From Frischella perrara (GTDB lineage Bacteria > Pseudomonadota > Gammaproteobacteria > Enterobacterales > Orbaceae): a stretch of 64,000 nucleotides of DNA. The notes beneath the pieces are model-generated. The model had not been told where the DNA came from. It saw only the letters and a list, made by a program, of their open reading frames with translations, and did not search any database. The stretch is taken from NCBI RefSeq assembly GCF_000807275.1, contig NZ_CP009056.1:991192-1055191 (forward strand), in the 5' to 3' direction. The position numbers and the translations under genes are program-made. Shown here piece by piece: positions 38,997-62,905 of the stretch (its first letter is position 1; every line of letters starts with the position of its first letter).

Positions 38997-40421
38997 ATGA
39001 AAACATTGGATGTCTCTGCATATTTTGCAGCCAGTTCTGGATTACCTTTTAAAGATCGTTGGGCAGTGATGCCTCTACAAGCCAATTTGCCATTAGCTCC
39101 AGAAGAAATAGGGCAGCAATGGCAAAATCTTCAAAATAGCGCTTTGGTTGGTCGTAAGCGATTAATTTACATTCACATTCCTTTTTGTGATATTCATTGT
39201 CAATTTTGCGGTTTTTATCAAAATCCATTAAGAAAATTTGATACAAATACCTATGTAGATTATTTGATGCAAGAAATTGCTATGGAAATTAATAGCATTG
39301 CAATGCAGTCAGCGCCAATCCATGCTATTTATTTTGGCGGGGGAACACCAACAGCTTTAGCTGCCGGTCAATTAGCAAGAATTATCAGTTATCTAAAACA
39401 ATTTGCGCCACTTGCTCCTGATTGTGAAATTACCGTGGAAGGGCGAATATCTGATTTTGATGATGAGCGAATCGATAGCTATATTGCGGCAGGTGCCAAT
39501 CGTTTTTCAATTGGAATTCAGACCTTTAATAGCCAAATACGTCGTAGACTCGGTCGTGAAACAGATCAACAACAGATAATCCAAACTTTTGAAAATATTG
39601 CTCGACGCGACAGTGTTACGCTGGTATGCGATCTTATGTTTGGTTTACCTAATCAAACATTTGAAACATGGCAACAGGATCTTGAAATTGCTGAAAGTTT
39701 ACCGTTAGATGGTGTGGATCTTTATTCTTTAAATCTTTTACCAACCACGCCGTTAGCTAAAGGTGTTGAAAATAAACGGATAGAATTACCAACTGTGGCG
39801 GATAAGTTCCACTTTTACCAACAAGGTGCAGAATTCCTAGCTAAAAAGGGCTGGATACATCTAACTAATGCGCACTGGGCTAAAACAACGCGTGAACGCA
39901 ATCTCTATAATTTCCTCATTAAACAAGGTTCTCATTTTTTTGCATTTGGTTCTTGTGCAGGAGGAAAATTGGGTGGGCAATCTTTTATGGTTCATCGTAG
40001 TTTAGAGCAATATTATGCTTTACTAGATCAAGGTAAGAAACCGCTGATGATGTTAACGGGCAAAACGTTGTTAGGTGATTGGTTGCATCAGTTACAAGCA
40101 GGAATTGAAAAAGGGCGCATTGATTTAACACAATTAACAGAGCATATTCATTTATTCGATCCTTTGATTGAACAATGGCACAAAGTTGGCCTTTTACAAG
40201 ATACGGATCATTGTATGCGTCTCACATTATCTGGGCGTTTTTGGTCAAGTAATATTTTACAAGCACTACAACAACTTTTATTAAAATTAAATAATCCAGA
40301 ACATATTGAGCTACAAGAAAAAATGCAATTAGCAAGAAAGGCAATGCAAACGAAACATGGTCAAGGTATGCCACCAACTCATTTAAAAACACAAGCAATT
40401 AAAGTTAATTCTTCTCAATAA
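38997..40421 (+). CDS. chuW: Anaerobic haem degradation radical SAM methyltransferase ChuW/HutW
   Basis: 474 aa. Radical SAM CxxxCxxC (CDIHCQFCGF), HemN-like architecture, and context with chuX and chuY. Confidence 0.8.
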   Translation: MKTLDVSAYFAASSGLPFKDRWAVMPLQANLPLAPEEIGQQWQNLQNSALVGRKRLIYIHIPFCDIHCQFCGFYQNPLRKFDTNTYVDYLMQEIAMEINSIAMQSAPIHAIYFGGGTPTALAAGQLARIISYLKQFAPLAPDCEITVEGRISDFDDERIDSYIAAGANRFSIGIQTFNSQIRRRLGRETDQQQIIQTFENIARRDSVTLVCDLMFGLPNQTFETWQQDLEIAESLPLDGVDLYSLNLLPTTPLAKGVENKRIELPTVADKFHFYQQGAEFLAKKGWIHLTNAHWAKTTRERNLYNFLIKQGSHFFAFGSCAGGKLGGQSFMVHRSLEQYYALLDQGKKPLMMLTGKTLLGDWLHQLQAGIEKGRIDLTQLTEHIHLFDPLIEQWHKVGLLQDTDHCMRLTLSGRFWSSNILQALQQLLLKLNNPEHIELQEKMQLARKAMQTKHGQGMPPTHLKTQAIKVNSSQ

Positions 40422-40432
40422 AGGAAAGAGCT

Positions 40433-40942
40433 ATGACAGAACAATCAAATAACCAAATGAAACTAATCGATTTTATGCAAACTAATCCAGAAGGAACTTT
40501 AGAGAAAATAGCTCAAGATTACCAAGTTAGTTTGAGCGAGGTTATTCAAGCATTACCGAATGTTAAATTAGCTGATGGTAATCAGTTTGATACTATTTGG
40601 CAAGAAGTTGAAACATGGGGTGAAATTACATTTTTAATTCATACTAAAGATATTATAGCTGAATTTTCTGGTGAATTGCCTTCAGGTTCTCATCGTGCCG
40701 GTTATTTCAATCTTAAACATAAACAGGGTTTAAGTGGACATATAAAAGCTGAGCATTGCCAACAAATAGCCTTTATCGAACGCAACTTTATGAAAATGTC
40801 TACGGCATCCATTATTTTCCTCAATAAACATGGTGAAGCGATGTTTAAGATTTTTGTTGGTCGTGATTCTCATCATCAATTGAAAGCAGATCAGTTGGAT
40901 AAATTTAAAGCCTTAGCGCAAAGATATAACAAAAAGATATAA
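40433..40942 (+). CDS. chuX: Haem utilisation cytosolic carrier protein ChuX/HutX
   Basis: 169 aa, family-typical size. Position between chuW and chuY. Confidence 0.7.
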   Translation: MTEQSNNQMKLIDFMQTNPEGTLEKIAQDYQVSLSEVIQALPNVKLADGNQFDTIWQEVETWGEITFLIHTKDIIAEFSGELPSGSHRAGYFNLKHKQGLSGHIKAEHCQQIAFIERNFMKMSTASIIFLNKHGEAMFKIFVGRDSHHQLKADQLDKFKALAQRYNKKI

Positions 40943-40962
40943 CAAATAGAACTGACAACATA

Positions 40963-41601
40963 ATGAAAACATTACTAATTTTTGGTGTTAGCGCACAACA
41001 CGGAACAGGTTATAACGTTTTACAAACCGTCTTAACTCACTATCCAGACTGGCGATGCTTGGTTTTAGTACGACATGCTGATTTGGCTTATCAACTTACG
41101 CAACAGGGAGTTCAATGTATCGTTGGTGATGCAACTGATTCTGAGGCAGTTGAACAGTTATGTAAAACGGCTGGTGAGCAGGCTATTATCGTCTCGACTC
41201 TTGGTGGTACAACCGGTAACTATACTGCGCAACGAGTAATTATTGATGCTGCTGAAAAAACCGGTATCCAACACATGTTGTTAGTCACATCTCTAGGGTG
41301 TGGTGAAACGTGGTCAACTTTATCATTACGTGCTAAACAAGCATTTGGTCAATCAGTACGCGAAAAGTCATTAGCAGAAGTTTGGTTGCAAACCAGCTCT
41401 CTTCAGTATTTGATTTTAAGACCCGGTGGTTTACTTGATGGCGATGCGACAGGTCAAGGTCAGTGCTATTATCAACAAGAAGTTCATGGCTTTATTCGAC
41501 GCCGTGAACTAGCGGAATTGATTATAAGAAAAATTGAAAATCAAGAATGGGATAATCGAGCATATAGTGTAATTGATCCTAGTATAAACGTTGAACGCTA
41601 A
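40963..41601 (+). CDS. chuY: NAD(P)H-binding protein ChuY (anaerobilin reductase-like)
   Basis: 212 aa. N-terminal Rossmann-like LLIFGVSAQHGTGYN. Conserved chuWXY context. Confidence 0.6.
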   Translation: MKTLLIFGVSAQHGTGYNVLQTVLTHYPDWRCLVLVRHADLAYQLTQQGVQCIVGDATDSEAVEQLCKTAGEQAIIVSTLGGTTGNYTAQRVIIDAAEKTGIQHMLLVTSLGCGETWSTLSLRAKQAFGQSVREKSLAEVWLQTSSLQYLILRPGGLLDGDATGQGQCYYQQEVHGFIRRRELAELIIRKIENQEWDNRAYSVIDPSINVER

Positions 41602-41650
41602 TATTGATCAAGAATAGTTTGAAAACGATTTTAATTAATGAGGTTGATTT

Positions 41651-42637
41651 ATGAACATAACTAACCCACGAATTTGGCTGTGGAGGTTAGGGGTACTTTT
41701 ATTTGTAGTTTTTGTATTTTCAACCAATGCTGGGGCATTACATTTTACTTTCTATCAGCTATTAACTATGTCATTTGATGACCCATTATGGAATATTTGG
41801 TTTAATATTCGTTTGCCTCGCATTCTATTGGCTATTGTGGTTGGTATGGCGTTAGCCTGTTCGGGGGCAGTCATGCAAGGTTTATTTAGAAATCCCTTAG
41901 CCGATTCAGGTCTTCTAGGCATTAGTAGTGGTGCAGCTTTGATGGTTACATTGACTATTTTGTTTCCGACTATTTTTCCTTCCATTATTATGCTTTATGG
42001 CAAGATGATCGCCGCTTTTATTGGTGGAACAGTTATTTGCTTAATTATATATATCTATAGTTTAAGCGAACAAGGCAACATGGCAAAATTAGTTTTATTA
42101 GGCGTTGCTATAAATGCGATTATTGTCGCTATCATGGGATGTTTGACTTATATAAGTGATGATCTACAACTTCGTCAAATTTCTTTATGGTCGATGGGGC
42201 ATTTAGGTAAAGGTTCTTGGGAGCTTGTTTTAGTTGCAGTTTCTCTTATTTTCCCTTCAATTATTGGTATTCTTAAATTATCTCAGCAGCTTAATATTTT
42301 ACAACTTGGTGATGAGGATGCGCATTATCTAGGGATTAATGTGCAAAGAGTTAAACGTTATTTACTATTATTAAGCGCATTATTAATAGGAACTGCCGTT
42401 GCGGTTAGTGGCATTATTGCTTTCATTGGTTTGGTCGTACCACATATGATACGATTGCTAATTGGTGCAGATCATCGAGGTTTAATTTTGGGGTCTGCTT
42501 TAGGTGGAGCATGTTTATTGTTATTTGCCGATACCCTCGCACGTACGGTGGTCGCTCCAACTGAAATTCCGGTAGGACTTTTCACTAGTCTTATTGGTGG
42601 ACCTTATTTTCTATGGCTAATTTTGAAACATAAATAA
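41651..42637 (+). CDS. hmuU: Haemin ABC transporter permease HmuU/ChuU (FecCD family)
   Basis: 328 aa. FecCD-family permease motifs (RLPRILLAIVVGMALA.SGA.MQGLFRNPLA). Confidence 0.85.
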   Translation: MNITNPRIWLWRLGVLLFVVFVFSTNAGALHFTFYQLLTMSFDDPLWNIWFNIRLPRILLAIVVGMALACSGAVMQGLFRNPLADSGLLGISSGAALMVTLTILFPTIFPSIIMLYGKMIAAFIGGTVICLIIYIYSLSEQGNMAKLVLLGVAINAIIVAIMGCLTYISDDLQLRQISLWSMGHLGKGSWELVLVAVSLIFPSIIGILKLSQQLNILQLGDEDAHYLGINVQRVKRYLLLLSALLIGTAVAVSGIIAFIGLVVPHMIRLLIGADHRGLILGSALGGACLLLFADTLARTVVAPTEIPVGLFTSLIGGPYFLWLILKHK

Positions 42638-42650
42638 TAGGTAATTATAC

Positions 42651-43424
42651 ATGTTGATTGCAAATAATCTCGTCTTTCAGTGTGGTCAGCGCACTTTAAT
42701 TAATGATGTTTGCTTAAATATTCATGCTGGTGAAATCGTTATAATAATTGGTCCTAATGGAGCAGGTAAATCTACATTATTACGTTTATTAACGGGATAT
42801 CAAGCGCCTTCCAGTGGCGAATGTTTATTACTTAATCAACCTTTATTGCAATGGGAAAATCGTGATCTGGCTAAAATACGAACTGTAATGCGTCAGCATA
42901 GTCAATTATCTTTCCCATTTAAAGTAAAAGAAGTTGTTGCAATGGGACGGGCACCTTATGGCAAGGCGAATCTTAAGCAAGCAATCATGCAAGTAATGCA
43001 ACAAACTGACTGTTTATCACTAGCAGAACGTGATTACCGTAGTCTTTCGGGGGGTGAACAACAACGCGTACAATTAGCTCGTGTGTTAGCACAATTATGG
43101 CAAGTAAACAAAACAGAAAAATTACTGTTCTTAGATGAACCGACGTCAGCCTTAGATTTATATCATCAGCAACATACTTTACGCTTATTAAAAAAACTAG
43201 CTGTTGAGCAGCGCTTGGCTGTATGTTGTGTACTGCATGATCTTAATTTAGCAGCGTTATATGCTGATCGCGTTTTATTACTTAGTGAGGGTAAAATTGT
43301 ATTACAAGGAACCCCTGAGGAGGTTATTACTGCCGAGAACATTCATCATTGGTATGGTGTTGAATTAGGTGTTCATGCGCATCCCAATTACGCTGAGACA
43401 CCACAAATTTACATGAATCGTTAG
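42651..43424 (+). CDS. hmuV: Haemin ABC transporter ATP-binding protein HmuV/ChuV
   Basis: 257 aa. Walker [18 protein letters not shown], Walker [13 protein letters not shown]. Confidence 0.85.
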
Positions 43425-50728: not shown

Positions 50729-51118
50729 AGACTCTGCTTTTTATTGTTATTAGACAACCGTATAGCTTTGAAACTAATCCAAACATCAATTCTGTTCACA
50801 AATTATTATTTAGATAACATTTTACCAACTTTTATAAGTTGTATTTTCAAATATTAATATTTTTTCCCCCTATAAAATTTCGTTAGCAATATTAACTATT
50901 TTTAAAGTCAATAATTTATGGAAATTATTGGCTTTTAATTGCCTTTCACATTTTATTTTTTTTATACAATTTATGATTAATAATTGCTAAATATGTAAAT
51001 GTTATTATAATCTGGGGAAATAATTATAAATAAAAGATAATAATTGAGTTATCAAAATAAAACACAATAAAAAGCTAAAAAATCAAACAATTATAATAAA
51101 AGAAAGGAATGAAAGGTA

Positions 51119-54100
51119 ATGAAGAGTATTATTCTGGATAGAAAAACTGGTGTATCACAAGAAACATCAGCTAATAATTTTGACATTGGAAGTTCTAAAA
51201 TTGTCATACTAAATATCACCAAAAATAATATCTTATCAATAACGCAAAATGATAATCAACTTGTTGTTCAGCTTAAATCCGGTAATCCTATAATTATCAA
51301 TGATTTTTATAGTTCACAAGATGATAAAAATGAAAATAAATTAGTCATTGATGATCCCTCGGAGGAAGAATTAGGATACTGGTGGATTGAAGAGCCAAAT
51401 AGCGGTTTAAATTGGGTACAACTTGATGATCTCAATCCATTAATGATTACAAATACATCTGATGGTATTTCTCCATGGGTTTATGCTGCGGGAGCGGGGA
51501 TTTTAGCGGCAGGTGTGTTAGCTGGTGGTGGCGGAGGCGGTGGTGGTGGACATCACCATAAAGGACAGCAAATTGCTACCCCAGTTGTTTCTTCTAATAA
51601 TGCCGAAGGTATAACAGGTACAGGGACGCCCGGTTGGGAAATTGTTTTAACTAAACCGGATAATACGACTGAAGTAACCACTGTTGATGAAAATGGTAAA
51701 TGGTCTTTTAATCAAAATGGTAACCCATTAGCTCATGGCGAAACAGGGAAAATTATAGCCAGAGATCCACAAAATAATGATAAAGTCAGCAAAGAAGTAG
51801 AAACGGTTGCTGATTGTCAACCTCCAGAGCCCCCCGTTGTTGAAATGAATAATAGTAATGGAATCTCGGGGACGGCAGAGCCAAATTCTACCATTACTAT
51901 AACAAACTCAGATGGCGAAGTGGTAGGCGAAGCAATAACAGATGCGAACGGTAATTGGCATATCGAACCTAATCCATTAGCCGATGGTGAAGAAGGTCAT
52001 TTTACCGCGACTGATAAAGCCGGTAATATCAGTGACGTGACTGATGATATTGCGGATGTCTTGGCGCCTAACGCACCTGAAGTTAAGCAAAATAATGCAC
52101 AAGGTATATCCGGTAAAGCGGAGGCCAACTCTCAAGTCATCGTTACTAACTCGAAGGGTGAAGTGGTTGGTGACGCTATGGCGGATGACCAAGGTAATTG
52201 GCATATTGATTATCCTAACCCATTAACCGATGGTGAAACCGGTCATTTTACTGCGACCGATGCGGCGGGTAATACCAGTAAGGTAACCGATAATATTGCT
52301 GATACCGTGGTACCTGAACCACCAATAGTTGAGCAAAATAATGCACAAGGTATATCCGGTAAAGCGGAGGCCAATTCTAAAGTCATCGTTACTAACTCGA
52401 AGGGTGAAGTAGTTGGTGAAGCTATAGCGGATGAGAATAATAATTGGCATATAGATTCTCCTAACCCGTTAGCTGATGGTGAAACCGGTCATTTTACTGC
52501 GACCGATGCGGCGGGTAATACCAGTAAGGTAACCGATAATATTGCTGATACCGTGGTACCTGAAGCACCAACAGTTGAGCAAAATAATGCACAAGGTATA
52601 TCCGGTAAAGCGGAGGCCAATTCTAAAGTCATCGTTACTAACTCGAAGGGTGAAGTAGTTGGTGAAGCTATAGCGGATGAGAATAATAATTGGCATATAG
52701 ATTATCCTAACCCGTTAGTTGATGGTGAAACCGGTCATTTTACTGCGACCGATGCGGCGGGTAATACCAGTAAGGTAACCGATAATATTGCTGATACCGT
52801 GGCACCTAAAGCACCAGAAGTTAAGCAAAATAATGCACAAGGTATATCCGGTAAAGCGGAGGCCAATTCTAAAGTCATCGTTACTAACTCGAAAGGTGAA
52901 GTGGTTGGCGAAGCTATAGCGGATGAGAATAATAATTGGCATATAGATTCTCCTAACCCGTTAGCTGATGGTGAAACCGGTCATTTTACTGCGACCGATG
53001 CGGCGGGTAATACCAGTAAGGTAACCGATAATATTGCTGATACCGTGGCACCTGAAGCACCAACAGTTGAGCAAAATAATGCACAAGGTATATCCGGTAA
53101 AGCGGAGGCCAATTCTAAAGTCATCGTTACTAACTCGAAAGGTGAAGTGGTTGGCGAAGCTATAGCGGATGAGAATAATAATTGGCATATAGATTCTCCT
53201 AACCCGTTAGCTGATGGAGAAACCGGTCATTTTACTGCGACCGATGCGGCGGGTAATACCAGTAAGGTAACCGATAATATTGCTGATACCGTGGCACCTG
53301 AAGCACCAACAGTTGAGCAAAATAATGCACAAGGTATATCCGGTAAAGCGGAGGCCAATTCTAAAGTCATCGTTACTAACTCGAAGGGTGAAGTAGTTGG
53401 TGAAGCTATAGCGGATGAGAATAATAATTGGCATATAGATTCTCCTAACCCGTTAGCTGATGGTGAAACCGGTCATTTTACTGCGACCGATGCGGCGGGT
53501 AATACCAGTAAGGTAACCGATAATATTGCTGATACCGTGGCACCTGAAGCACCAGACAGTTGAGCAAAATAATGCACAAGGTATATCCGGTAAAGCGGAG
53601 GCCAATTCTAAAGTCATCGTTACTAACTCGAAGGGTGAAGTAGTTGGTGAAGCTATAGCGGATGAGAATAATAATTGGCATATAGATTCTCCTAACCCGT
53701 TAGCTGATGGTGAAACCGGTCATTTTACTGCGACCGATGCGGCGGGTAATACCAGTAAGGTAACCGATAATATTGCTGATACCGTGGCACCTGAAGCACC
53801 AACAGTTAAGCAAAATAATGCACAAGGTATATCCGGTAAAGCGGAGGCCAATTCTAAAGTCATCGTTACTAACTCGAAGGGTGAAATAGTTGGTGAAGCT
53901 ATAGCGGATGAGAATGAGAATTGGCATATTGATTCTCCTAACCCATTAGCCGATGGAGAAACAGGTCATTTTACTGCGACCGATGCGGCGGGTAATACCA
54001 GTGAGGTAACCGATAATATTGCCGATACCGTGGCACCTGAACCACCAGAAGTTAAGCAAAATAATGCACAAGGTATATCCGGTAAAGCGGAGGCCAATTC

Positions 54101-57100
54101 TAAAGTCATCGTTACTAACTCGAAGGGTGAAGTAGTTGGTGAAGCTATAGCGGATGAGAATGAGAATTGGCATATTGATTCTCCTAACCCATTAGCCGAT
54201 GGAGAAACCGGTCATTTTACTGCGACCGATGTGGCAGGTAATACCAGTGAGGTAACCGATAATATTGCTGATACCGTGGCACCTGAAGCACCAACAGTTA
54301 AGCAAAATAATGCACAAGGTATATCTGGTAAAGCGGAGGCCAATTCTAAAGTCATCGTTACTAACTCGAAGGGTGAAGTAGTTGGTGAAGCTATAGCGGA
54401 TGAGAATGAGAATTGGCATATTGATTCTCCTAACCCGTTAGCTGATGGTGAAACCGGTCATTTTACTGCGACCGATGTGGCAGGTAATACCAGTAAGGTA
54501 ACCGATAATATTGCTGATACCGTGGCACCTGAACCACCAGAAGTTGAGCAAAATAATGCACAAGGTATATCCGGTAAAGCGGAGGCCAATTCTAAAGTTG
54601 TTGTTACTAACTCGAAAGGTGAAATAGTTGGTGAAGCTATAGCGGATGAGAATAATAATTGGCATATAGATTCTCCTAACCCGTTAGCTGATGGTGAAAC
54701 CGGTCATTTTACTGCGACCGATGCGGCGGGTAATACCAGTAAGGTAACCGATAATATTGCTGATACCGTGGTACCTGAACCACCAACAGTTGAGCAAAAT
54801 AATGCACAAGGTATATCCGGTAAAGCGGAGGCCAATTCTAAAGTCATCGTTACTAACTCGAAGGGTGAAGTAGTTGGTGAAGCTATAGCGGATGAGAATA
54901 ATAATTGGCATATAGATTATCCTAACCCGTTAGCTGATGGTGAAACCGGTCATTTTACTGCGACCGATGCGGCGGGTAATACCAGTAAGGTAACCGATAA
55001 TATTGCTGATACCGTGGTACCTGAAGCACCAACAGTTGAGCAAAATAATGCACAAGGTATATCCGGTAAAGCGGAGGCCAATTCTAAAGTCATCGTTACT
55101 AACTCGAAAGGTGAAGTGGTTGGCGAAGCTATAGCGGATGAGAATAATAATTGGCATATAGATTCTCCTAACCCGTTAGCTGATGGAGAAACCGGTCATT
55201 TTACCGCGACCGATGCGGCAGGTAATACCAGTAAGGTAACCGATAATATTGCTGATACCGTGGCACCTGAAGCACCAATAGTTGAGCAAAATAATGCACA
55301 AGGTATATCCGGTAAAGCGGAGGCCAATTCTAAAGTCATCGTTACTAACTCGAAAGGTGAAGTGGTTGGCGAAGCTATAGCGGATGAGAATAATAATTGG
55401 CATATAGATTCTCCTAACCCGTTAGCTGATGGTGAAACCGGTCATTTTACTGCGACCGATGCGGCGGGTAATACCAGTAAGGTAACCGATAATATTGCTG
55501 ATACCGTGGCACCTGAAGCACCAACAGTTGAGCAAAATAATGCACAAGGTATATCCGGTAAAGCGGAGGCCAATTCTAAAGTCATCGTTACTAACTCGAA
55601 AGGTGAAGTGGTTGGCGAAGCTATAGCGGATGAGAATAATAATTGGCATATAGATTCTCCTAACCCGTTAGCTGATGGTGAAACCGGTCATTTTACTGCG
55701 ACCGATGCGGCGGGTAATACCAGTAAGGTAACCGATAATATTGCTGATACCGTGGCACCTGAAGCACCAACAGTTGAGCAAAATAATGCACAAGGTATAT
55801 CCGGTAAAGCGGAGGCCAATTCTAAAGTCATCGTTACTAACTCGAAGGGTGAAGTAGTTGGTGAAGCTATAGCGGATGAGAATAATAATTGGCATATAGA
55901 TTATCCTAACCCGTTAGCTGATGGTGAAACCGGTCATTTTACTGCGACCGATGCGGTGGGTAATACCAGTAAGGTAACCGATAATATTGCTGATACCGTG
56001 GCACCTGAAGCACCAACAGTTGAGCAAAATAATGCACAAGGTATATCCGGTAAAGCGGAGGCCAATTCTAAAGTCATCGTTACTAACTCGAAGGGTGAAG
56101 TAGTTGGTGAAGCTATAGCGGATGAGAATAATAATTGGCATATAGATTATCCTAACCCGTTAGTTGATGGTGAAACCGGTCATTTTACTGCGACCGATGC
56201 GGCGGGTAATACCAGTAAGGTAACCGATAATATTGCTGATACCGTGGCACCTAAAGCACCAGAAGTTAAGCAAAATAATGCACAAGGTATATCCGGTAAA
56301 GCGGAGGCCAATTCTAAAGTCATTGTTACTAACTCGAAAGGTGAAGTGGTTGGCGAAGCTATAGCGGATGAGAATAATAATTGGCATATAGATTCTCCTA
56401 ACCCGTTAGCTGATGGTGAAACCGGTCATTTTACTGCGACCGATGCGGCGGGTAATACCAGTAAGGTAACCGATAATATTGCTGATACCGTGGCACCTGA
56501 AGCACCAGAAGTTAAGCAAAATAATGCACAAGGTATATCCGGTAAAGCGGAGGCTAATTCTAAAGTTGTTGTTACTAACTCGAAAGGTGAAATAGTTGGT
56601 GAAGCTATAGCGGATGAGAATAATAATTGGCATATAGATTCTCCTAACCCGTTAGCTGATGGTGAAACCGGTCATTTTACTGCGACCGATGCGGCGGGTA
56701 ATACCAGTAAGGTAACCGATAATATTGCTGATACCGTGGCACCTGAAGCACCAACAGTTAAGCAAAATAATGCACAAGGTATATCCGGTAAAGCGGAGGC
56801 CAATTCTAAAGTCATCGTTACTAACTCGAAGGGTGAAATAGTTGGTGAAGCTATAGCGGATGAGAATAATAATTGGCATATTGAACCTAACCCGTTAGCC
56901 GATGGAGAAACCGGTCATTTTATTGCGATTGATGTAGCCGGTAATGAAAGTTTACAAAGCACGAAAATAACCGATACTGTGGTCCCTGAAGCCCCTAAGA
57001 TAATTCATAGTAATTCTAATGAAATATATGGTACTTCAGAACAAAATGCACTAATTACTATAAAAGACCGAAAAGGTAACGTAATCACGACTACCTTCGC

Positions 57101-58124
57101 TGATGAAAAAGGAAATTGGAAAATAAACCCAAATCCAATAACAACCCATAACACGATAATCAGAGTTACGGCTACTGATGAAGCAGGTAATGAAAGTATG
57201 CCAGGATCTGCCATGACAGATCTTGAACCACCAAGAAAACCGTTAATTGATGAATGTAATGCAGATGAATTATCCGGTGTTACAGAACCCGGTTCGTTAA
57301 TTTATGTATATGACTCGGATGGCAAACCAATTATGGATGGTGACCAACCTAAATATGCGAAAGCTGATCCATCTGGTATTTGGGAATTTAAACCAAATCC
57401 TTTAGGCAATAATTCAGGGTATATCGTTGCAATGGATGACGCTCATAATGTTAGTGATCCAGTCGCTATTGAAGGAATGTCGCAATATCTAGAAGACAAT
57501 TCATCATTATTGCGGAGTGATGCTGAAGTTGATGATATTAATAATCATGATGATCAGCAATCAATCAGCGATAAGGTTGATTCAGACAATACTGTAGAAA
57601 ATGATAATGAACCTAAAGTTATCAATGTTGACAATCATTCATCATCAAATGAGTCAAGGGATCTTAATAGTAATGAATTAACATCAGATAATTCACAAGC
57701 TAACGATAATGTTGACATTAAGGATCAGTTTGATTTGCCAAATGAAAGTCAATATCTATCACTTGATAAATTGTTAAGCACTTTTAATAGCGATAATGGC
57801 AACAATCTAGACGCTATTGATAGTTTTACGGATCGTCACATCCTTCTTATTAATGAAGATGTTGATTTAACAAATCTAAACGATTTATTAGGTTCTTCTA
57901 AAGAAGCCGTTTCTTTTTATCCAGAAAATAATCAGTTACAGCCTGAAAGTGACTTAGTTGAAATACTGGACTATATTCAAGGAGAACAAATGAGTATGGT
58001 TTTAGAAACTAATTTTGATAATAATGAATTAAACGACAGTCAGGAACTAGAAACGGTGATGACCTTAAAAGATACCGATGACGATATTTTAACCCAATTA
58101 GCTAATCATCAAGCCGTTATTTAA
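51119..58124 (+). pseudogene. Giant BapA/SiiE-like T1SS-secreted adhesin of about 2335 aa if uninterrupted. Architecture: N-terminal module, about 24 bacterial Ig-like domains (20 of them near-identical 82-aa repeats), and an acidic D/N/E-rich C-terminal region. A +1 frameshift (extra G at 53555) splits it into ORFs 51119..53563 and 53526..58124.
   Basis: Both ORFs translate to the same 82-aa repeat (VEQNNAQGISGKAEANSKVIVTNSKGEVVGEAIADENNNWHIDSPNPLADGETGHFTATDAAGNTSKVTDNIADTVAPEAPT). The canonical junction ccaacagttgag reads ccagacagttgag at 53551-53563, creating a TGA stop. T1SS genes lie immediately downstream. No RTX GGxGxD nonapeptide repeats were seen. Confidence 0.75.
52082..57002 (+). 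repeat. Tandem array of 20 near-identical 246-bp units (82-aa BIg-like domain repeats). Further degenerate copies lie on each side (about 51590-52081 and 57003-57480).
   Basis: Unit starts at 52082+246k (k=0..5) and 53559+246k (k=0..13). The minus-strand 75-aa phantom ORFs recur at exactly 246-bp spacing. Confidence 0.9.
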
Positions 58125-58210: not shown

Positions 58211-59599
58211 ATGGTATCTATAAAAAAGCTCACTTTATTGATGTTATTTTTGTCGATTTCTCCTTGTATAGCTAAACATTCTAATCTCCCTTCTCTTCAT
58301 AATGATAATCAAGAAGTTGCGACTAATGATTGTCAAGTGGATAGCTCAATGACGACAAAGGGACTGAGTTTAAATAATATTATTTGTATAGCTATTAAAC
58401 GCTATCCTACCATTGCATCCGCAAGATCAGGCTATGAAGGATATATGGAGATGATCGAAGCTGCAAAAGCCGGTTACTATCCACAAATAAATTTTAATGT
58501 CCAAACTACAAAATCATCTGGAATCAGAGATGGTTATGCCAATACCCCAAGAGTCACGATGCAACAACGGATTTATGATTTTGGTAAAGTTAGTAGTTCA
58601 ATTGAACAATCCAAAGCTGAGGCTGATCGTCAAAGGGGGAATGTATTACAACAAATTGATAATATTATTATTCAATCTGGTAATCTAGCATTGGAAATTC
58701 AACGTTTAGAGACATTAGAATTAAAAAGTAAAAATCTATTACAAGGAATTAACAAAGTTCTTGATATTGCTATCTCACGATCTAATTCCGGAGTGAGTAC
58801 GCAATCGGATTATATCCAAGCTAAATCACGACAAGAAGCAGCAGAAGCAAACTTGTTCGATATACAAACTCAACTTAGTACTACAAGAAGAAAACTAACT
58901 ACATATATAGGATCACAGTATACTAATGCTAAATTAGCAACTATTGGCGATAAGCTATTTAATAGGAACATCCTACAATATCCAATTAATGAGAAACAGA
59001 TCCCAACTGTGATTATGAATCAAGCGTTTCGATCTATGGCTCAAGCTCAGGTTGATAGCGCCAAAGCTGCATTAATGCCAACCATATCACTGGTAGGATC
59101 TGTAGAAAAAACCATTCATGGATATAATCCTAATAATGGTAAATACAAAGGAAATTATAACTATTTAGGATTGTCAGTCGAACAAAGTGTATTTAGCGGT
59201 GGTGAAAATTTAGCAAAACTCAAATCTGCACAAAAACAGCTAAATTTAGCCGATTATGATATCAAAACAATACGATTAGAATTAAATGATCAAGTAGACT
59301 CAATAAAATTAAATATTAATGGGATTGAATCCCGCATAAAAGTTTTGGCATCACGGCTAAAAAGTATCAATGAAACGCGTATTTTATATCGAGAACAGTA
59401 TACGCTAGGAAGTCGCCCCATATTAGACCTTCTTAATTCAGAAGAAGAGGTATTTCAAGCTGAAACAAATCTTATTAATGCTCATCACGATAGATGGTCA
59501 TATTATCTTCAATATCTAGTCGTAACTGGCAATGCTAGACAGATTTTTAAGTTAGAACCGCTGGTAGATAAGTATTTAGGACAAAGTAATGGAAAATAA
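58211..59599 (+). CDS. TolC-family outer membrane efflux protein (T1SS outer membrane component)
   Basis: 462 aa. Signal peptide and TolC-like repeat structure (...GYYPQINFNVQ..., C-terminal coiled-coil repeats). Confidence 0.8.
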   Translation: MVSIKKLTLLMLFLSISPCIAKHSNLPSLHNDNQEVATNDCQVDSSMTTKGLSLNNIICIAIKRYPTIASARSGYEGYMEMIEAAKAGYYPQINFNVQTTKSSGIRDGYANTPRVTMQQRIYDFGKVSSSIEQSKAEADRQRGNVLQQIDNIIIQSGNLALEIQRLETLELKSKNLLQGINKVLDIAISRSNSGVSTQSDYIQAKSRQEAAEANLFDIQTQLSTTRRKLTTYIGSQYTNAKLATIGDKLFNRNILQYPINEKQIPTVIMNQAFRSMAQAQVDSAKAALMPTISLVGSVEKTIHGYNPNNGKYKGNYNYLGLSVEQSVFSGGENLAKLKSAQKQLNLADYDIKTIRLELNDQVDSIKLNINGIESRIKVLASRLKSINETRILYREQYTLGSRPILDLLNSEEEVFQAETNLINAHHDRWSYYLQYLVVTGNARQIFKLEPLVDKYLGQSNGK

Positions 59600-61733
59600 A
59601 TCTTATAATCAATGGTTAGTTGCATTCTTAAAAGTTGCTAACATTTATGGATTGGATGTATCAGAAGAGAATGCGAAGACCTTTGTCAGTTGGGATCAAT
59701 CCCCAAATAAAGAGCAATTATTAACACAATTAGCAAAACAATTGGGTTTATCTATTCGCTTTCAATCCGTTTCTAAGTCAATATTTGATCCTTGGCGACT
59801 ACCTGTTGTTATTGAATTTGATGAAAATCAAATCGGAGTTATTTTAAAATCAGATAATAAAGAAAAAGCCACATTAATGATGTCAAACGATGATGGCTTA
59901 TCTATAGATCTATCATTTGATGAAATCTATTCTCAAGCGAAAAAAATCATTATATTACGTCCTGAATCGTCAATACCTGATGCACGTGTGGATGACTATA
60001 TACAACGCCCAAAGAAAAATTGGTTTTGGCAAGTCGTTCTAAAAGATTGGAAGAGTTATAGCCATATCATAATGGCTTCTTTATTTGTGAATTTATTGGC
60101 TTTGGCATCAGTTATTTTTTCAATGCAAGTATATGATCGCGTTATTCCAGCTCAGTCCCAATCGACATTGTGGGTACTTTTTTTGGGGGTAGTCATTGCT
60201 ATCTGTTTTGAATTTTTGTTACGTTTTTCTAGAACACACATCTCAGATGCGATAGGCAAAAAGATTGACTTAAAAATTTCTGATAAAGTATTTGGTAGGG
60301 CTTTACGGCTACGAAATGATGTTCGTTCTAAATCTACCGGTTCTTTCGTATCTCAATTGCGTGAGTTAGATCAATTAAGGGAAGTGGTTGCTTCAACGAC
60401 GATTAATGCCTTAGCGGATGTTCCTTTTGTTATAGTATTTATGAGTATTCTTTTTTTGATTGGTGGGCCTTTAACTATCGTCGCATTAATCATGATACCA
60501 TTGCTAGTTATACCAAGCATTTTGGCACAAAAACCATTGGCTCGTTTGGCTAAAGAAGGTATGAGAGAGTCAGCCATTCGTAATGCCTTACTAATTGAAT
60601 CAGTTGAAGCTATTGAAGATATTAAATTATTGCGCGCCGAATATCGCTATCAAAATCAATGGAATCATGTTAATACCGTTTCAGCGAGTGTTAGTTTGAA
60701 ACAACGAAGGATTGTGAGTTTTCTTGTTTCTTGGTCACAGGAACTACAGTCCTTTACTTATGTTGCCGTATTGTTAATTGGTGCTTATATGGTTATCGAC
60801 GGCAATATAACTACGGGTACATTAGTTGGAAGTTCAATCTTATCATCGCGCTTAATTGCGCCTTTAGCACAATGGACTGGGGTACTGTCACGATTACAAA
60901 GTGCGAAAGTAGCTTACCGTAGTATCAATGAATTGATGTCCAAAGCAGTCGATTACGCTGAGCATGACAAGATGTTACATAAACCGCATATAAAGGGTGA
61001 TTACGAACTGAGTTCAGTTGAATTAACTTATGATCCTAAAGATAAATCACCTGCATTATCAATTGAATCCCTAAAAATAAAAGCAGGAGAAAGAGTCGCA
61101 ATTTTAGGTAGGATGGGCGCGGGTAAGTCAACACTATTGAATCTGTTGTGTGGGATGAGTTTAGCTACCAAAGGGGCAGTTCAAGTTGATCATTGTGATA
61201 TTCGTAGCATTGATCCATTAGATGTCCGTCGAGATATTGCCTTTCTAAGTCAAAACTCAAGATTATTATTCGGTTCAATCCGCGACAATTTATTAATGGG
61301 TAACCCTCAAGCAACCGATCAGGATCTGGTACAAGCTATTCAAATCTCAGGTGCATTTCCCATCATTCAGAAACAAGGTATTGATTATGTTATAAAAGAA
61401 GGTGGTAAGGGCTTATCCGAGGGGCAGAAACAGTCTCTTATTTTGGCAAGAACGTTATTAAAAAACCCTAATGTACTCTTGCTTGATGAACCAACGGCAT
61501 CAATTGATGAGATGACCGAGAAACATATCATTAATCACTTAGAACAATGGCTAGTTAATCGAACATTGATATTATCAACTCATAAACCCGCGTTATTGAA
61601 ATTAGTTAATCGTATTATTGTCATTGATCAAGGCAAAATTGTGATTGATGGTCCTAAAGAAGATGTTTTAGCACTTCTTTCAAAAGAAGGACAAAAAACA
61701 GCCGTTGATGCGGTTAAAGGAAATAACACATGA
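59589..61733 (+). CDS. Type I secretion ABC transporter (HlyB/LapB-like) with an N-terminal C39-like domain lacking the catalytic Cys, a TM domain and an NBD
   Basis: 714 aa. The N-terminal ~130 aa are C39-peptidase-like with no Cys at the catalytic position. Six TM helices. Walker A GRMGAGKST, LSEGQKQ signature, Walker B LLLDEPTASID. Confidence 0.85.
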   Translation: MENKSYNQWLVAFLKVANIYGLDVSEENAKTFVSWDQSPNKEQLLTQLAKQLGLSIRFQSVSKSIFDPWRLPVVIEFDENQIGVILKSDNKEKATLMMSNDDGLSIDLSFDEIYSQAKKIIILRPESSIPDARVDDYIQRPKKNWFWQVVLKDWKSYSHIIMASLFVNLLALASVIFSMQVYDRVIPAQSQSTLWVLFLGVVIAICFEFLLRFSRTHISDAIGKKIDLKISDKVFGRALRLRNDVRSKSTGSFVSQLRELDQLREVVASTTINALADVPFVIVFMSILFLIGGPLTIVALIMIPLLVIPSILAQKPLARLAKEGMRESAIRNALLIESVEAIEDIKLLRAEYRYQNQWNHVNTVSASVSLKQRRIVSFLVSWSQELQSFTYVAVLLIGAYMVIDGNITTGTLVGSSILSSRLIAPLAQWTGVLSRLQSAKVAYRSINELMSKAVDYAEHDKMLHKPHIKGDYELSSVELTYDPKDKSPALSIESLKIKAGERVAILGRMGAGKSTLLNLLCGMSLATKGAVQVDHCDIRSIDPLDVRRDIAFLSQNSRLLFGSIRDNLLMGNPQATDQDLVQAIQISGAFPIIQKQGIDYVIKEGGKGLSEGQKQSLILARTLLKNPNVLLLDEPTASIDEMTEKHIINHLEQWLVNRTLILSTHKPALLKLVNRIIVIDQGKIVIDGPKEDVLALLSKEGQKTAVDAVKGNNT

Positions 61734-62905
61734 GCAAAAGATCTATAAATAATTGGGATATTGTTGAAGGAGGCACAAGTAAATCTCAGCTACTAATATG
61801 GTTTATTGTATTGGCAATAAGCTGTTTTTATGTTTGGGCATCCGTATTCAAATTAACAGAAGTTTCATCGGGTACTGGTAAAGTTATTGCATCTTCTAAA
61901 GAACAAGTCATTCAATCATTAGAAGGTGGTGTTTTGAAACAATTAAATGTAAAAGAAGGACAATTAGTTGAAGCCAATCAGGTTTTAGCTTTTATTGATC
62001 CAACTAGAATGCAGTCAAGTGTTGGGGAAGCGCAAGCAAAATTAAAAGCCGCTAAAGCCACGGTTGCTAGATTACGCGCTGAAGTGGATGAAACACCGTT
62101 AGTTTTTCCTGAAGAAGTACTTAATGATTCCAGTCTTGTAAAATATGAGAGTAATTTATTTGAGTCAAGACGTAAATCGCTAACTGAGTCTATAGAGGGA
62201 ATCAAGCAAAGCCAACAACTAATATTGCAAGAATTAAAACTAACAGAACCACTAGTATTAAAAGGTGCAGCCAGTAATGTTGAAATTCTTAGATTAAAAA
62301 GGCAATTAAATGAACTTAAATCCAAAGAAATCGACATTAAAGGCCAATATATTGTTAAAGCTCGTGAAGAATTAGCTAAAGCCACAGCTGAAGTTGGCTC
62401 ACAAATGGAAATACTTAGAGGACGACAAGATGCATTAATGAGAACAACGATTGAATCACCAGTTAGAGGTATTGTTAAAAATATTGCAATTTCTACCTTG
62501 GGTGGCGTGATTCCTCCTGGCGGAAGATTGATGGAAATAATTCCCGTTGATGAACGATTGCAAATTGAAGCGCGTATTTCCCCTCGCGATATAGCATATA
62601 TTCGCGATGGTTTACCGGCTATTGTTAGAATTACAGCTTATGACTATTCAATATATGGTGCGTTAAACGGTGTTGTTGAGACCATCTCGCCAGACACAAT
62701 TCAAGATGAGGTAAATCGTGACAATTATTATTATCGAGTCTATATCAAAACAGATAGTGATCAATTAATGGATAAAAATGGTGTTGCTCATATAATCAAG
62801 CCCGGTATGATAGCCACTGTTGATATTAGAACGGGTGAAAAAACCGTATTGGAATATCTCATTAAACCTTTTAATAAAATGCGTGAAGCAATGCGAGAAC
62901 GCTAA
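61730..62905 (+). CDS. HlyD-family type I secretion membrane fusion protein
   Basis: 391 aa. N-terminal TM anchor, long coiled-coil, and C-terminal beta-barrel/lipoyl motifs. The ATGA overlap with the upstream ABC gene indicates translational coupling. Confidence 0.85.
   Translation: MSKRSINNWDIVEGGTSKSQLLIWFIVLAISCFYVWASVFKLTEVSSGTGKVIASSKEQVIQSLEGGVLKQLNVKEGQLVEANQVLAFIDPTRMQSSVGEAQAKLKAAKATVARLRAEVDETPLVFPEEVLNDSSLVKYESNLFESRRKSLTESIEGIKQSQQLILQELKLTEPLVLKGAASNVEILRLKRQLNELKSKEIDIKGQYIVKAREELAKATAEVGSQMEILRGRQDALMRTTIESPVRGIVKNIAISTLGGVIPPGGRLMEIIPVDERLQIEARISPRDIAYIRDGLPAIVRITAYDYSIYGALNGVVETISPDTIQDEVNRDNYYYRVYIKTDSDQLMDKNGVAHIIKPGMIATVDIRTGEKTVLEYLIKPFNKMREAMRER

What the first reader, a model, noticed from the sequence alone, without database searches (positions are those of the whole stretch)
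51119..58124. Giant BapA/SiiE-like adhesin gene split by a single-base (+1 G) frameshift inside a near-perfect tandem repeat
Two long same-strand ORFs (814 aa and 1532 aa) overlap in different frames and both translate to the same 82-aa Ig-like repeat. At 53551-53563 the canonical repeat junction ccaacagttgag reads ccagacagttgag, which creates a TGA stop. This could be a genuine pseudogene, a phase-variable ON/OFF switch, or a consensus error in a ~5 kb near-identical array. If intact, the product is a ~2300-aa surface adhesin, likely important for host colonisation or biofilm formation.
Basis: seen in the sequence. Interest (0 to 1): 0.7.

Follow-up and report, generated by a model that had tools for sequence, protein, structure and literature searches.

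The report
Adhesin gene split by suspect G
A giant surface-adhesin gene of the honeybee gut bacterium Frischella perrara is split by one extra G in the published genome, and that G is most likely a sequencing-consensus error in a long repeat, not a biological switch.

Summary
ORF1 (51119-53563, 814 aa) and ORF2 (53526-58124, 1532 aa, +1 frame) are two halves of one gene. That gene carries a 20-copy, 246-bp, 96%-identical repeat, and a single extra G at 53555 breaks it. Deleting the G gives one 2334-aa ORF.

The window is from the Frischella perrara PEB0191 genome. The halves are already deposited as AJA44752.1 and AJA44753.1 (FPB0191_00926/00927). The protein is a BapA-type type I secretion adhesin: a BapA_N prefix, 24 Big_6 Ig-like domains, no RTX motifs, and TolC, LssB-type ABC and HlyD genes directly downstream.

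The G is not in a homopolymer. It sits on the array's commonest dinucleotide difference between units (ACA in 12 units, GAA in 5). The resulting "GACA" is the gapped merge of those two alleles, which points to a consensus artefact. Only 3.3% of possible insertions would look like this.

Seven complete orthologues from other F. perrara strains are single intact ORFs of 1500-2556 aa. Same-strain short-read contigs match the window perfectly on both flanks but stop inside the array, so nothing independent covers the site.

Verdict: probably an assembly error (~0.68), possibly a recent strain-specific pseudogene (~0.25). Phase variation and programmed frameshifting are not supported. Low interest.

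The parts
51119..58124 (+). Whole adhesin gene as it most likely exists. It is a 2334-aa BapA-type type I secretion adhesin once the extra G at 53555 is removed.
   Evidence: Deleting G53555 gives a single ORF with no internal stop. Orthologues in the same synteny are single ORFs with the same N- and C-termini.
51119..53563 (+). ORF1 as deposited: 814 aa (AJA44752.1, FPB0191_00926 / Fpe_00926). It holds the BapA_N prefix and 8 Big_6 domains and ends at the TGA created by the frameshift.
53526..58124 (+). ORF2 as deposited: 1532 aa from a TTG in the +1 frame (AJA44753.1, FPB0191_00927 / Fpe_00927). It holds 16 Big_6 domains and the acidic C-terminal region.
   Evidence: The genome coordinates 1044717-1049315 in the eLife supplement match this ORF's length.
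53555..53555 (+). The extra G. It turns CCA ACA GTT GAG into CCA GAC AGT TGA.
   Evidence: It is flanked by A on both sides, so it is neither a duplication nor in a run.
51968..56928 (+). Tandem array of 20.2 copies of a 246-bp (82-aa) Ig-like unit at 96% identity. Units 2-19 differ from one another by 0-18 nt.
51131..51481 (+). BapA prefix-like N-terminal domain (aa 5-121). A hydrophobic stretch and a Gly9-His3 run follow it (about aa 118-148).
   Evidence: Pfam PF22783, E = 1.3e-21. NCBIfam NF033677, 37.8 bits against a cut-off of 35. Sequence.
57132..58121 (+). Non-repetitive acidic C-terminal 330 aa (42% D/E/N/S; 70 D+E against 16 K+R). This is the presumed type I secretion signal region. 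It has no RTX nonapeptides.
   Evidence: The C-terminus ...TQLANHQAVI is conserved in all orthologues. The secretion-signal role is inferred, not tested.
50984..51011 (+). Promoter-like site TTGCTA-16-TATAAT upstream of the adhesin gene. It is identical in 11 related loci.
   Evidence: This is a consensus match only.
58211..59599 (+). TolC-family outer-membrane component of the type I secretion system (AJA44754.1, Fpe_00928).
59589..61733 (+). LssB-type type I secretion ABC permease/ATPase (Fpe_00929).
   Evidence: TIGR03375, 799.7 bits against a cut-off of 693.
61730..62905 (+). HlyD-family periplasmic adaptor (Fpe_00930).
   Evidence: TIGR01843, 309 bits against a cut-off of 209.

Best explanation
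The locus encodes one intact BapA-type giant adhesin of about 2334 aa. It is exported by the TolC / LssB-type ABC / HlyD type I secretion system encoded directly downstream. The extra G at 53555 is most likely a consensus error in the only complete assembly of F. perrara PEB0191.

Proposed route to the error (inferred):
- Reads that cannot be placed uniquely within 246-bp units that are 96-100% identical mix two repeat alleles at this junction, CCA-ACA-GTT and CCA-GAA-GTT.
- An aligner or consensus caller that prefers indels represents the AC/GA difference as 'insert G and delete C'.
- Only the insertion was applied, which leaves CCAGACAGTT.

Shown here: the anatomy, the hybrid nature of the junction, the intact orthologues, and the absence of any independent sequence over the site.

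Inferred: the artefact mechanism. That the genome is a PacBio-only assembly rests on my memory and was not verified.
For: 1. The junction codon is the main multi-allelic site of the unit. Among units 2-19, columns 234/235 read AC (12 units), GA (5) and AT (1). This is the commoner of only two true dinucleotide polymorphisms in the unit. The frameshifted GACA is one deletion away from both the T allele and the E allele.
2. Only 583 of 17,712 possible single-base insertions in the array (3.3%) would have that property.
3. The G is flanked by A on both sides and is not in a run. The longest homopolymer in the gene is 6. From general knowledge, spontaneous +1 insertions are mostly duplications within runs.
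4. After repair, the site lies inside 342-nt exact repeats shared with the neighbouring units. An E-type junction shares 153 identical bases to its left. Short or unanchored reads therefore cannot be placed there.
5. There is only one lesion. The 4.6 kb downstream stay open.
6. The two half-proteins occur on a single contig in a collection of about 15 billion proteins, the 2,692,351-bp PEB0191 chromosome.
7. Seven complete orthologues from other F. perrara strains are single ORFs of 2556, 2556, 2556, 2394, 1504, 1504 and 1500 aa. They share the same start (MKSIILDRK...) and end (...TQLANHQAVI) and sit in identical synteny.
8. Same-strain short-read contigs match the window with 0 mismatches and 0 gaps over 19.9 kb. 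They stop at 52110 and resume at 56413, so the assembly is clean wherever it can be checked, and the lone anomaly lies in the unchecked 4.3 kb.
9. Published RNA-seq gives logCPM 9.04 for Fpe_00926 and 9.96 for Fpe_00927. The difference of 0.93 equals the length ratio log2(4599/2445) = 0.91, so there is no polarity across the stop. This is weak evidence.
10. A survey of long-read assemblies reports that unique frameshifts in highly repetitive T1SS adhesin genes are common, and commoner in PacBio assemblies (bioRxiv 10.1101/2025.09.30.679566).
Against: - No read-level or independent assembly evidence covers 52111-56412, so the G has not been shown to be absent from the strain.
- The repaired 2334-aa protein, with either T or E at the junction, is not present in the public protein collection.
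- Laboratory type strains often lose adhesins, so a genuine recent null mutation is plausible.
- The flanking sequence of this assembly is error-free over 19.9 kb, which shows generally good consensus quality.
- The lack of transcriptional polarity is weak evidence. The array is G-rich rather than C-rich (GC skew +0.14), so it is probably a poor Rho substrate. Multi-mapping reads were probably discarded (Bowtie2 + HTSeq).
Confidence: 0.68

Rival explanations
1. Genuine, very recent pseudogene. The PEB0191 lineage, in the bee or during laboratory passage, acquired a real +1 insertion. ORF1 would then give an 814-aa fragment without the C-terminal secretion signal, which is not exported. The adhesin would be null, while the type I secretion genes stay intact and transcribed.
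For: - The G is in the deposited sequence.
- The assembly is otherwise error-free over the 19.9 kb that can be checked.
- There is a single lesion with an otherwise open frame, as expected for a recent event.
- Loss of large adhesins in cultured strains is common (general knowledge).
- The survey of long-read assemblies says such unique frameshifts cannot be assigned without reads.
Against: - The insertion is not in a run and does not duplicate a neighbouring base.
- It falls exactly on the commonest dinucleotide polymorphism between units and forms the gapped union of two alleles. Only 3.3% of random insertions would do so.
- A real heteroduplex between equal-length alleles has no gap, so it would not naturally produce a +1 hybrid (inference).
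- All seven complete orthologues are intact.
- There is no drop in transcript level downstream of the stop.
Confidence: 0.25
2. Reversible ON/OFF switch (phase variation). The frameshift is real and is gained or lost at high frequency, either by slippage or by recombination or gene conversion between neighbouring units. This would switch the adhesin off and on.
For: - Units next to the lesion differ from it by only 1-5 nt and share 342-nt exact matches. Intra-array recombination could in principle erase a lesion much faster than point reversion.
- Repeat copy number does vary among strains by whole units: 2556, 2394 and 1504 aa, in steps of 81 aa.
Against: - There is no homopolymer or short tandem tract at the site. 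The longest run in the gene is 6.
- The promoter region has no length polymorphism in 11 strains.
- The frameshifted junction is absent from every related locus fetched and from a metagenome scan. That scan lacked a positive control.
- No second frameshifted allele is known.
Confidence: 0.04
3. The split is real but functional. Either programmed +1 ribosomal frameshifting restores the full-length protein, or two products are made, with ORF2 initiating at TTG 53526 and being secreted on its own.
For: - ORF2 keeps the C-terminal secretion region.
- ORF2 is transcribed at the same per-length level as ORF1.
Against: - There is no slippery sequence or Shine-Dalgarno-like stimulator at CCA GAC AGU UGA.
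- The downstream RNA folds no better than shuffled sequence (z = +0.45).
- Orthologues have no frameshift, so nothing is conserved.
- All other junctions in the same gene are in frame.
- The TTG start gives ten out-of-frame residues, LLIPWHLKHQ.
Confidence: 0.02

Closest known systems
BapA of Salmonella enterica (bapABCD) and the NCBIfam 'BapA/Bap/LapF prefix-like' adhesin class
   Same: - N-terminal BapA prefix-like domain (PF22783 and NF033677).
- A long run of bacterial Ig-like repeats.
- No RTX nonapeptides.
- The gene is followed directly by TolC, ABC and HlyD type I secretion genes.
   Different: - The repeat unit here is a nearly uniform 82-aa Big_6 module copied about 20 times at 96% DNA identity.
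- Sequence similarity outside the domain families was not measured against Salmonella BapA itself.
- A biofilm role is untested in Frischella.
Pseudomonas aeruginosa/putida 'BapA prefix-like domain-containing' proteins of 2300-2680 aa. From memory, this is the PA1874-1877 locus.
   Same: - They are the best hits outside Frischella: about 37-40% identity over about 85% of ORF2.
- They share the Big_6 / Big_13 / BapA_N domain set.
   Different: - They are only distant relatives.
- The link to PA1874 is my recollection, not a tool result.
Acinetobacter Bap / Blp2 Ig-like repeat proteins and the solved 'Biofilm-associated surface protein' domains (PDB 7dm0, 6m3a)
   Same: - ORF2 scores 1143 bits on NF040520 (Ig_like_BLP2; cut-off 750). 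The score accumulates over 7 repeat stretches.
- The first repeats match 7dm0_A at E = 5.9e-17.
- Acinetobacter gerneri proteins reach 44-48% identity.
   Different: - The Blp2 score comes from repeated matches to the repeat part of the model, not from end-to-end equivalence.
- ORF1 alone scores below the cut-off (399 bits).
SiiE (Salmonella SPI-4) and LapA / MpIBP-type RTX adhesins
   Same: - Giant proteins secreted by type I systems and built from tandem Ig-like domains.
- The genes are notoriously hard to assemble.
   Different: - No GGxGxD RTX repeats.
- No SiiE-specific family hit.
- No SiiAB-like or LapG/LapD-like genes among the immediate neighbours, which are the malonate decarboxylase operon upstream and a helicase downstream.
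Unique frameshifts in repetitive adhesin genes of long-read assemblies (bioRxiv 10.1101/2025.09.30.679566)
   Same: A single, strain-unique frameshift inside a long array of identical Ig-like repeats. The preprint reports 36% of Aeromonas hydrophila Ah1a genes with such unique frameshifts, enriched in PacBio assemblies.
   Different: Here the inserted base can be traced to a specific pair of repeat alleles. That gives a concrete artefact signature, not merely a statistical suspicion.

Membership tests
BapA/Bap-type type I secretion adhesin | N-terminal BapA prefix-like domain | tested here: met
   PF22783 BapA_N, E = 1.3e-21, 77 bits (cut-off 27), aa 5-121. NF033677, 37.8 bits (cut-off 35).
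BapA/Bap-type type I secretion adhesin | Long tandem array of bacterial Ig-like (Big_6 / Ca_tandemer) domains | tested here: met
   8 + 16 Big_6 stretches in the two ORFs. NF033510 Ca_tandemer, 224 bits (cut-off 50). Array of 20.2 x 246 bp.
BapA/Bap-type type I secretion adhesin | Dedicated TolC + ABC + membrane-fusion genes adjacent | tested here: met
   The TolC-family gene hits PF02321 OEP (146.5 bits, cut-off 22); its TIGR01844 type_I_sec_TolC score is 207 bits, just below the 225-bit cut-off. TIGR03375 LssB-type ABC, 800 bits (cut-off 693). TIGR01843 HlyD, 309 bits (cut-off 209). All lie directly downstream on the same strand.
BapA/Bap-type type I secretion adhesin | One continuous ORF joining the N-terminal prefix to the C-terminal secretion region | tested here: inconclusive
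   Not met in the sequence as deposited, where the stop falls at 53561-53563. Met after removing one base and in seven orthologues. Whether the base exists in the organism cannot be tested here.
BapA/Bap-type type I secretion adhesin | Secretion by the linked system and a role in adhesion or biofilm | not testable with these tools
   Only transcription is documented. Fpe_00927-00930 are 4.7- to 8.9-fold higher in wild type than in the ihfA* mutant.
RTX adhesin (LapA / MpIBP / FrhA type) | C-terminal RTX nonapeptide (GGxGxD) beta-roll repeats | tested here: not met
   No GG.G.D or G.G.[DN] match anywhere in the repaired 2334-aa protein. No RTX family among the Pfam or NCBIfam hits.
RTX adhesin (LapA / MpIBP / FrhA type) | LapG protease / LapD receptor genes at the locus | tested here: not met
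   The immediate neighbours are mdcG/mdcH upstream and a helicase/PLD protein downstream. The rest of the genome was not searched. 'AAG' motifs occur at aa 123 and 130, but cleavage is untested.
SiiE-type adhesin (SPI-4) | SiiE-type BIg domains with SiiABCDF operon composition | tested here: not met
   No SiiE-specific family hit. The operon has only the TolC, ABC and HlyD genes and no MotAB-like SiiAB.
Phase-variable contingency locus | Homopolymer or short tandem tract at the switching site | tested here: not met
   The inserted G is flanked by A on both sides (CCA-G-ACA). The longest homopolymer in the gene is C6 at 51830.
Phase-variable contingency locus | Length polymorphism at the site among strains or reads | tested here: not met
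   The frameshifted junction is absent from all fetched loci. The promoter region has no indel in 11 strains. The split proteins are on one contig only. Within-population variation is not testable here.
Programmed ribosomal frameshift | Slippery site plus stimulator, conserved in orthologues | tested here: not met
   No slippery motif. The RNA fold has z = +0.45 against shuffles. Orthologues are in frame.

The most novel reading that the evidence does not exclude
The G is real, and the lesion acts as a recombination-reversible OFF state. It lies in a unit flanked by near-identical copies (342-nt exact matches). Gene conversion or unit deletion within the array could therefore restore the reading frame far more often than point reversion. 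That would give this bee-gut symbiont a repeat-mediated ON/OFF switch for an IHF-regulated adhesin, with no simple-sequence tract involved.
Probability: 0.04. Interest if true: 0.5.

Novelty: already known. Interest (0 to 1): 0.15.

Why it matters
The practical consequences are modest.

- If the G is an error, FPB0191_00926 and FPB0191_00927 should be merged into one 2334-aa BapA-type adhesin in the reference genome of the F. perrara type strain.
- Expression tables and any mutant or colonisation studies that treat them as two 'Ig-like domain' genes should then be read as one gene. That gene belongs to the IHF-dependent 'Genomic Island 5' type I secretion locus.
- If the G is real, the type strain used for gnotobiotic bee experiments lacks an adhesin that other strains keep intact. 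That would matter for interpreting colonisation phenotypes.
- The case also shows a usable diagnostic: an indel that is the gapped union of two paralogous repeat alleles points to a consensus artefact.

Tried and rejected
- **Genome-contig scan** with the N-terminal 244 aa.
- **The search for homologous proteins with the N-terminal 244 aa**. It returned no hit. Yet P0017 and six other proteins share 96% identity over exactly this stretch. This was a search failure, not absence.
- **Exact look-up of ORF1 among assembly contigs**. Nothing was on record, although the protein is in NCBI.
- **Two metagenome-contig scans** for the junction, one allowing 0-1 inserted base and one for the frameshifted form. 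Both gave 0 hits. They are uninformative, because the canonical junction present in JGI-derived locus L002 was not found either.
- **Exact look-up of the repaired protein** with T or E at the junction. It is not in the collection, so no independent intact copy of this allele exists there.
- **The genome paper** (Engel et al. 2015, AEM, PMC4309719) is not held, so the sequencing platform could not be verified.
- **eLife supplement 1** holds growth and cell-length data, not the breseq mutation lists.
- **Programmed frameshifting** was considered and rejected.
- **Promoter-tract phase variation** was considered and rejected.
Full report
**1. Observation**

The ORF list shows two same-strand ORFs in different frames with a 38-nt overlap: 51119-53563 (814 aa) and 53526-58124 (1532 aa). 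Tandem Repeats Finder reports a single array at 51968-56928, with period 246, 20.2 copies, 96% matches and no indels. Both translations show the same 82-aa unit.

Anchoring each unit on its conserved AAxAATGCxCAAGG motif gives 19 spacings. Eighteen are 246 nt. The one from 53321 to 53568 is 247 nt. The canonical junction GCACCAACAGTTGAG occurs seven times. GCACCAGACAGTTGAG occurs once, at 53549, and puts TGA in frame at 53561-53563. Deleting G53555 yields one 2334-aa ORF with no internal stop.

**2. What the gene is**

- ORF1 carries a BapA prefix-like domain at aa 5-121 (PF22783, E = 1.3e-21; NF033677 above its cut-off).
- ORF1 and ORF2 carry 8 and 16 Big_6 Ig-like domains. Ca_tandemer also scores well above its cut-off.
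- The first repeats match solved 'Biofilm-associated surface protein' domains (7dm0_A, E = 5.9e-17).
- The last 330 aa are non-repetitive and strongly acidic. They contain no RTX nonapeptide.
- A TolC-family gene, an LssB-type ABC exporter (TIGR03375, 800 bits) and a HlyD adaptor (TIGR01843) lie directly downstream on the same strand. The malonate decarboxylase operon lies upstream.

This is the BapA class of type I secretion adhesins. It is not the RTX (LapA/MpIBP) class. It resembles SiiE only by analogy.

**3. Where the window comes from**

The TolC and MdcH proteins are identical to AJA44754.1 and AJA44751.1 of Frischella perrara, on a 2,692,351-bp contig. ORF1 and ORF2 are AJA44752.1 (FPB0191_00926) and AJA44753.1 (FPB0191_00927). 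Each is recorded on that one contig only.

The eLife 2023 supplement lists Fpe_00927 at genome 1044717-1049315, so genome coordinate = window coordinate + 991191. The split is therefore already in the public annotation of the type strain PEB0191 (GCF_000807275.1).

In that study:
- Fpe_00927-00930 belong to 'Genomic Island 5'.
- They are 4.7- to 8.9-fold higher in wild type than in the ihfA* mutant.
- Fpe_00926-00930 are 2.5- to 6.4-fold lower in the bee gut than on plates.

**4. The nature of the inserted base**

Listing all 20 junctions shows that this codon is the multi-allelic site of the unit. It reads CCA ACA GTT (Thr), CCA GAA GTT (Glu) or CCA ATA GTT (Ile). Among units 2-19, columns 234/235 read AC in 12 units, GA in 5 and AT in 1. 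This is the commoner of only two true dinucleotide polymorphisms in the 246-bp unit.

The frameshifted junction reads CCA GACA GTT. It equals the Thr allele plus a G, and also the Glu allele plus a C. This is what results when AC/GA is aligned as '-AC' over 'GA-' and only the insertion is applied.

Supporting points:
- Of 17,712 possible single-base insertions in units 2-19, only 583 (3.3%) would be one deletion away from another unit's allele.
- The G is flanked by A on both sides.
- The longest homopolymer in the whole gene is six.
- After repair, the site lies in 342-nt exact matches with both neighbouring units. It also shares 153 identical bases on its left with an E-type junction. Reads without a unique anchor cannot be placed there.

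A true heteroduplex between equal-length alleles has no gap. A biological origin for a +1 'union' allele therefore needs a special coincidence. This last step is inference.

**5. Comparison with other strains**

Contigs carrying the identical MdcH protein include three metagenome contigs (L012-L014). In each, a single 2556-aa ORF fills the space between mdcH and tolC. Their flanks are 98.7-99.4% identical to the window. Their repeat is 243 bp at 83% identity, which explains why short reads assembled it.

Seven complete orthologues are on record, with lengths of 2556 (three), 2394, 1504 (two) and 1500 aa. All begin MKSIILDRK and end TQLANHQAVI. The 2556-, 2394- and 1504-aa lengths differ by whole 81-aa units. 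The N-terminal 244 aa are 96% identical to the window protein, and the C-terminal 400 aa are 89% identical.

None of the fetched loci contains the frameshifted junction. The 390-bp upstream region, including a TTGCTA-16-TATAAT site, shows substitutions only and no indel in 11 strains.

**6. Same-strain check**

Logan contigs of run SRR7084654 (L020, L010) and a contig of GCA_003182045.1 (L006) match the window with 0 mismatches and 0 gaps over 12,306 and 7,588 bases. They end at 52110 and begin at 56413. The assembly is therefore perfect wherever it can be checked. The 4.3 kb that include the lesion have no independent support.

The repaired protein, with Thr or Glu at the junction, is not in the public collection. 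Two metagenome pattern scans returned nothing and lacked a positive control.

**7. Other readings**

- *Programmed frameshifting.* The site has no slippery sequence. The downstream RNA folds no better than shuffles (z = +0.45). Orthologues have no frameshift.
- *Classical phase variation.* There is no tract at the site or in the promoter.
- *Real recent pseudogene.* This remains possible. It would leave an 814-aa fragment without the C-terminal secretion region, which is functionally a null. The published logCPM values (9.04 and 9.96) differ by exactly the length ratio of the two ORFs, so no polarity is seen across the stop. This is weak evidence, because the array is G-rich and multi-mapping reads were probably dropped.

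**8. Context from the literature**

A survey of long-read assemblies reports that unique frameshifts in highly repetitive type I secretion adhesin genes are frequent. For one Aeromonas hydrophila adhesin isoform (Ah1a) they affect 36% of copies. They are commoner in PacBio assemblies, and they cannot be told from real pseudogenes without reads (bioRxiv 10.1101/2025.09.30.679566). That CP009056 is a PacBio-only assembly is my recollection. The genome paper is not held.

**9. Verdict**

| Reading | Probability |
|---|---|
| One intact BapA-type adhesin gene; the extra G is a consensus artefact | about 0.68 |
| Genuine recent strain-specific pseudogene | about 0.25 |
| Reversible switch | about 0.04 |
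| Programmed frameshift or functional two-part product | about 0.02 |

The gene, its secretion system and even the split annotation are already public. The adhesin is an ordinary member of a well-known class, so interest is low. A k-mer count in existing Illumina reads of the strain would settle the question in minutes.

Noticed in passing
window 52001-56000, compared with the rest of the window: The repeat array has 44% G+C and a strong positive GC and AT skew. The flanks have 25-39% G+C, and the type I secretion genes have 33-37%. This may only reflect the Gly/Ala/Thr/Asp-rich Ig-domain composition, or a foreign origin for 'Genomic Island 5'.
   Followed up: no
window 51968-56928, compared with L012:12035-17664: PEB0191 has a 246-bp unit at 96% identity, and some units are identical (4 = 14 = 15; 3 = 17). 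Strains with 99% identical flanks have a 243-bp unit at only 83% identity. The array seems to have been recently homogenised or re-expanded in the PEB0191 lineage. The C-terminal region falls into at least three allele groups: 99.7-100%, about 96% and 93.8% identity.
   Followed up: partly
P0017, P0020-P0025 (loci L012-L014 and others): Complete orthologues are 2556, 2394, 1504 and 1500 aa long. The 2556-, 2394- and 1504-aa lengths differ by 2 or 13 whole 81-aa units. This indicates repeat copy-number variation among F. perrara strains, or collapse of repeats in some metagenome assemblies.
   Followed up: partly
L002:5533-6540 (JGI 3300000462, single-cell contig): In this contig the HlyD gene stops after 174 aa. 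The sequence then continues into the adhesin upstream region and the mdc operon in inverted orientation. This looks like an inverted chimera of the kind produced by single-cell amplification, not a real rearrangement.
   Followed up: no
window 51470-51565 (aa 118-148 of the adhesin): Directly after the BapA_N domain comes a hydrophobic stretch (ISPWVYAAGAGILAAGVLA), then nine glycines and three histidines. Two 'AAG' motifs resemble the di-alanine LapG cleavage site of LapA-type adhesins. No LapG or LapD gene lies next to the locus, and the rest of the genome was not searched.
   Followed up: no
L001:15008-21389 and the equivalent parts of L003-L010 (downstream of window 62905): Downstream of the type I secretion genes, all strains carry a 1163-aa helicase/PLD-nuclease protein. 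A variable series of short Endonuclease_NS_2 fragments and YezG-like or unannotated 115-aa genes follows. This looks like an array of orphan toxin tips and immunity genes.
   Followed up: no
window 38997-43424: A haem-utilisation cluster lies just upstream of the ogt-like methyltransferase and the malonate decarboxylase operon. It comprises a radical SAM protein, ChuX/HutX, an NmrA-like protein, a FecCD permease and an ABC ATPase. This is inferred from the Pfam labels of the identical genes in L012-L021.
   Followed up: no
one search compared: The word-indexed protein search with the N-terminal 244 aa reported no hit at E <= 0.001. Yet seven proteins in the same collection share 96% identity with it. 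Negative results from that tool on this query should not be trusted.
   Followed up: yes
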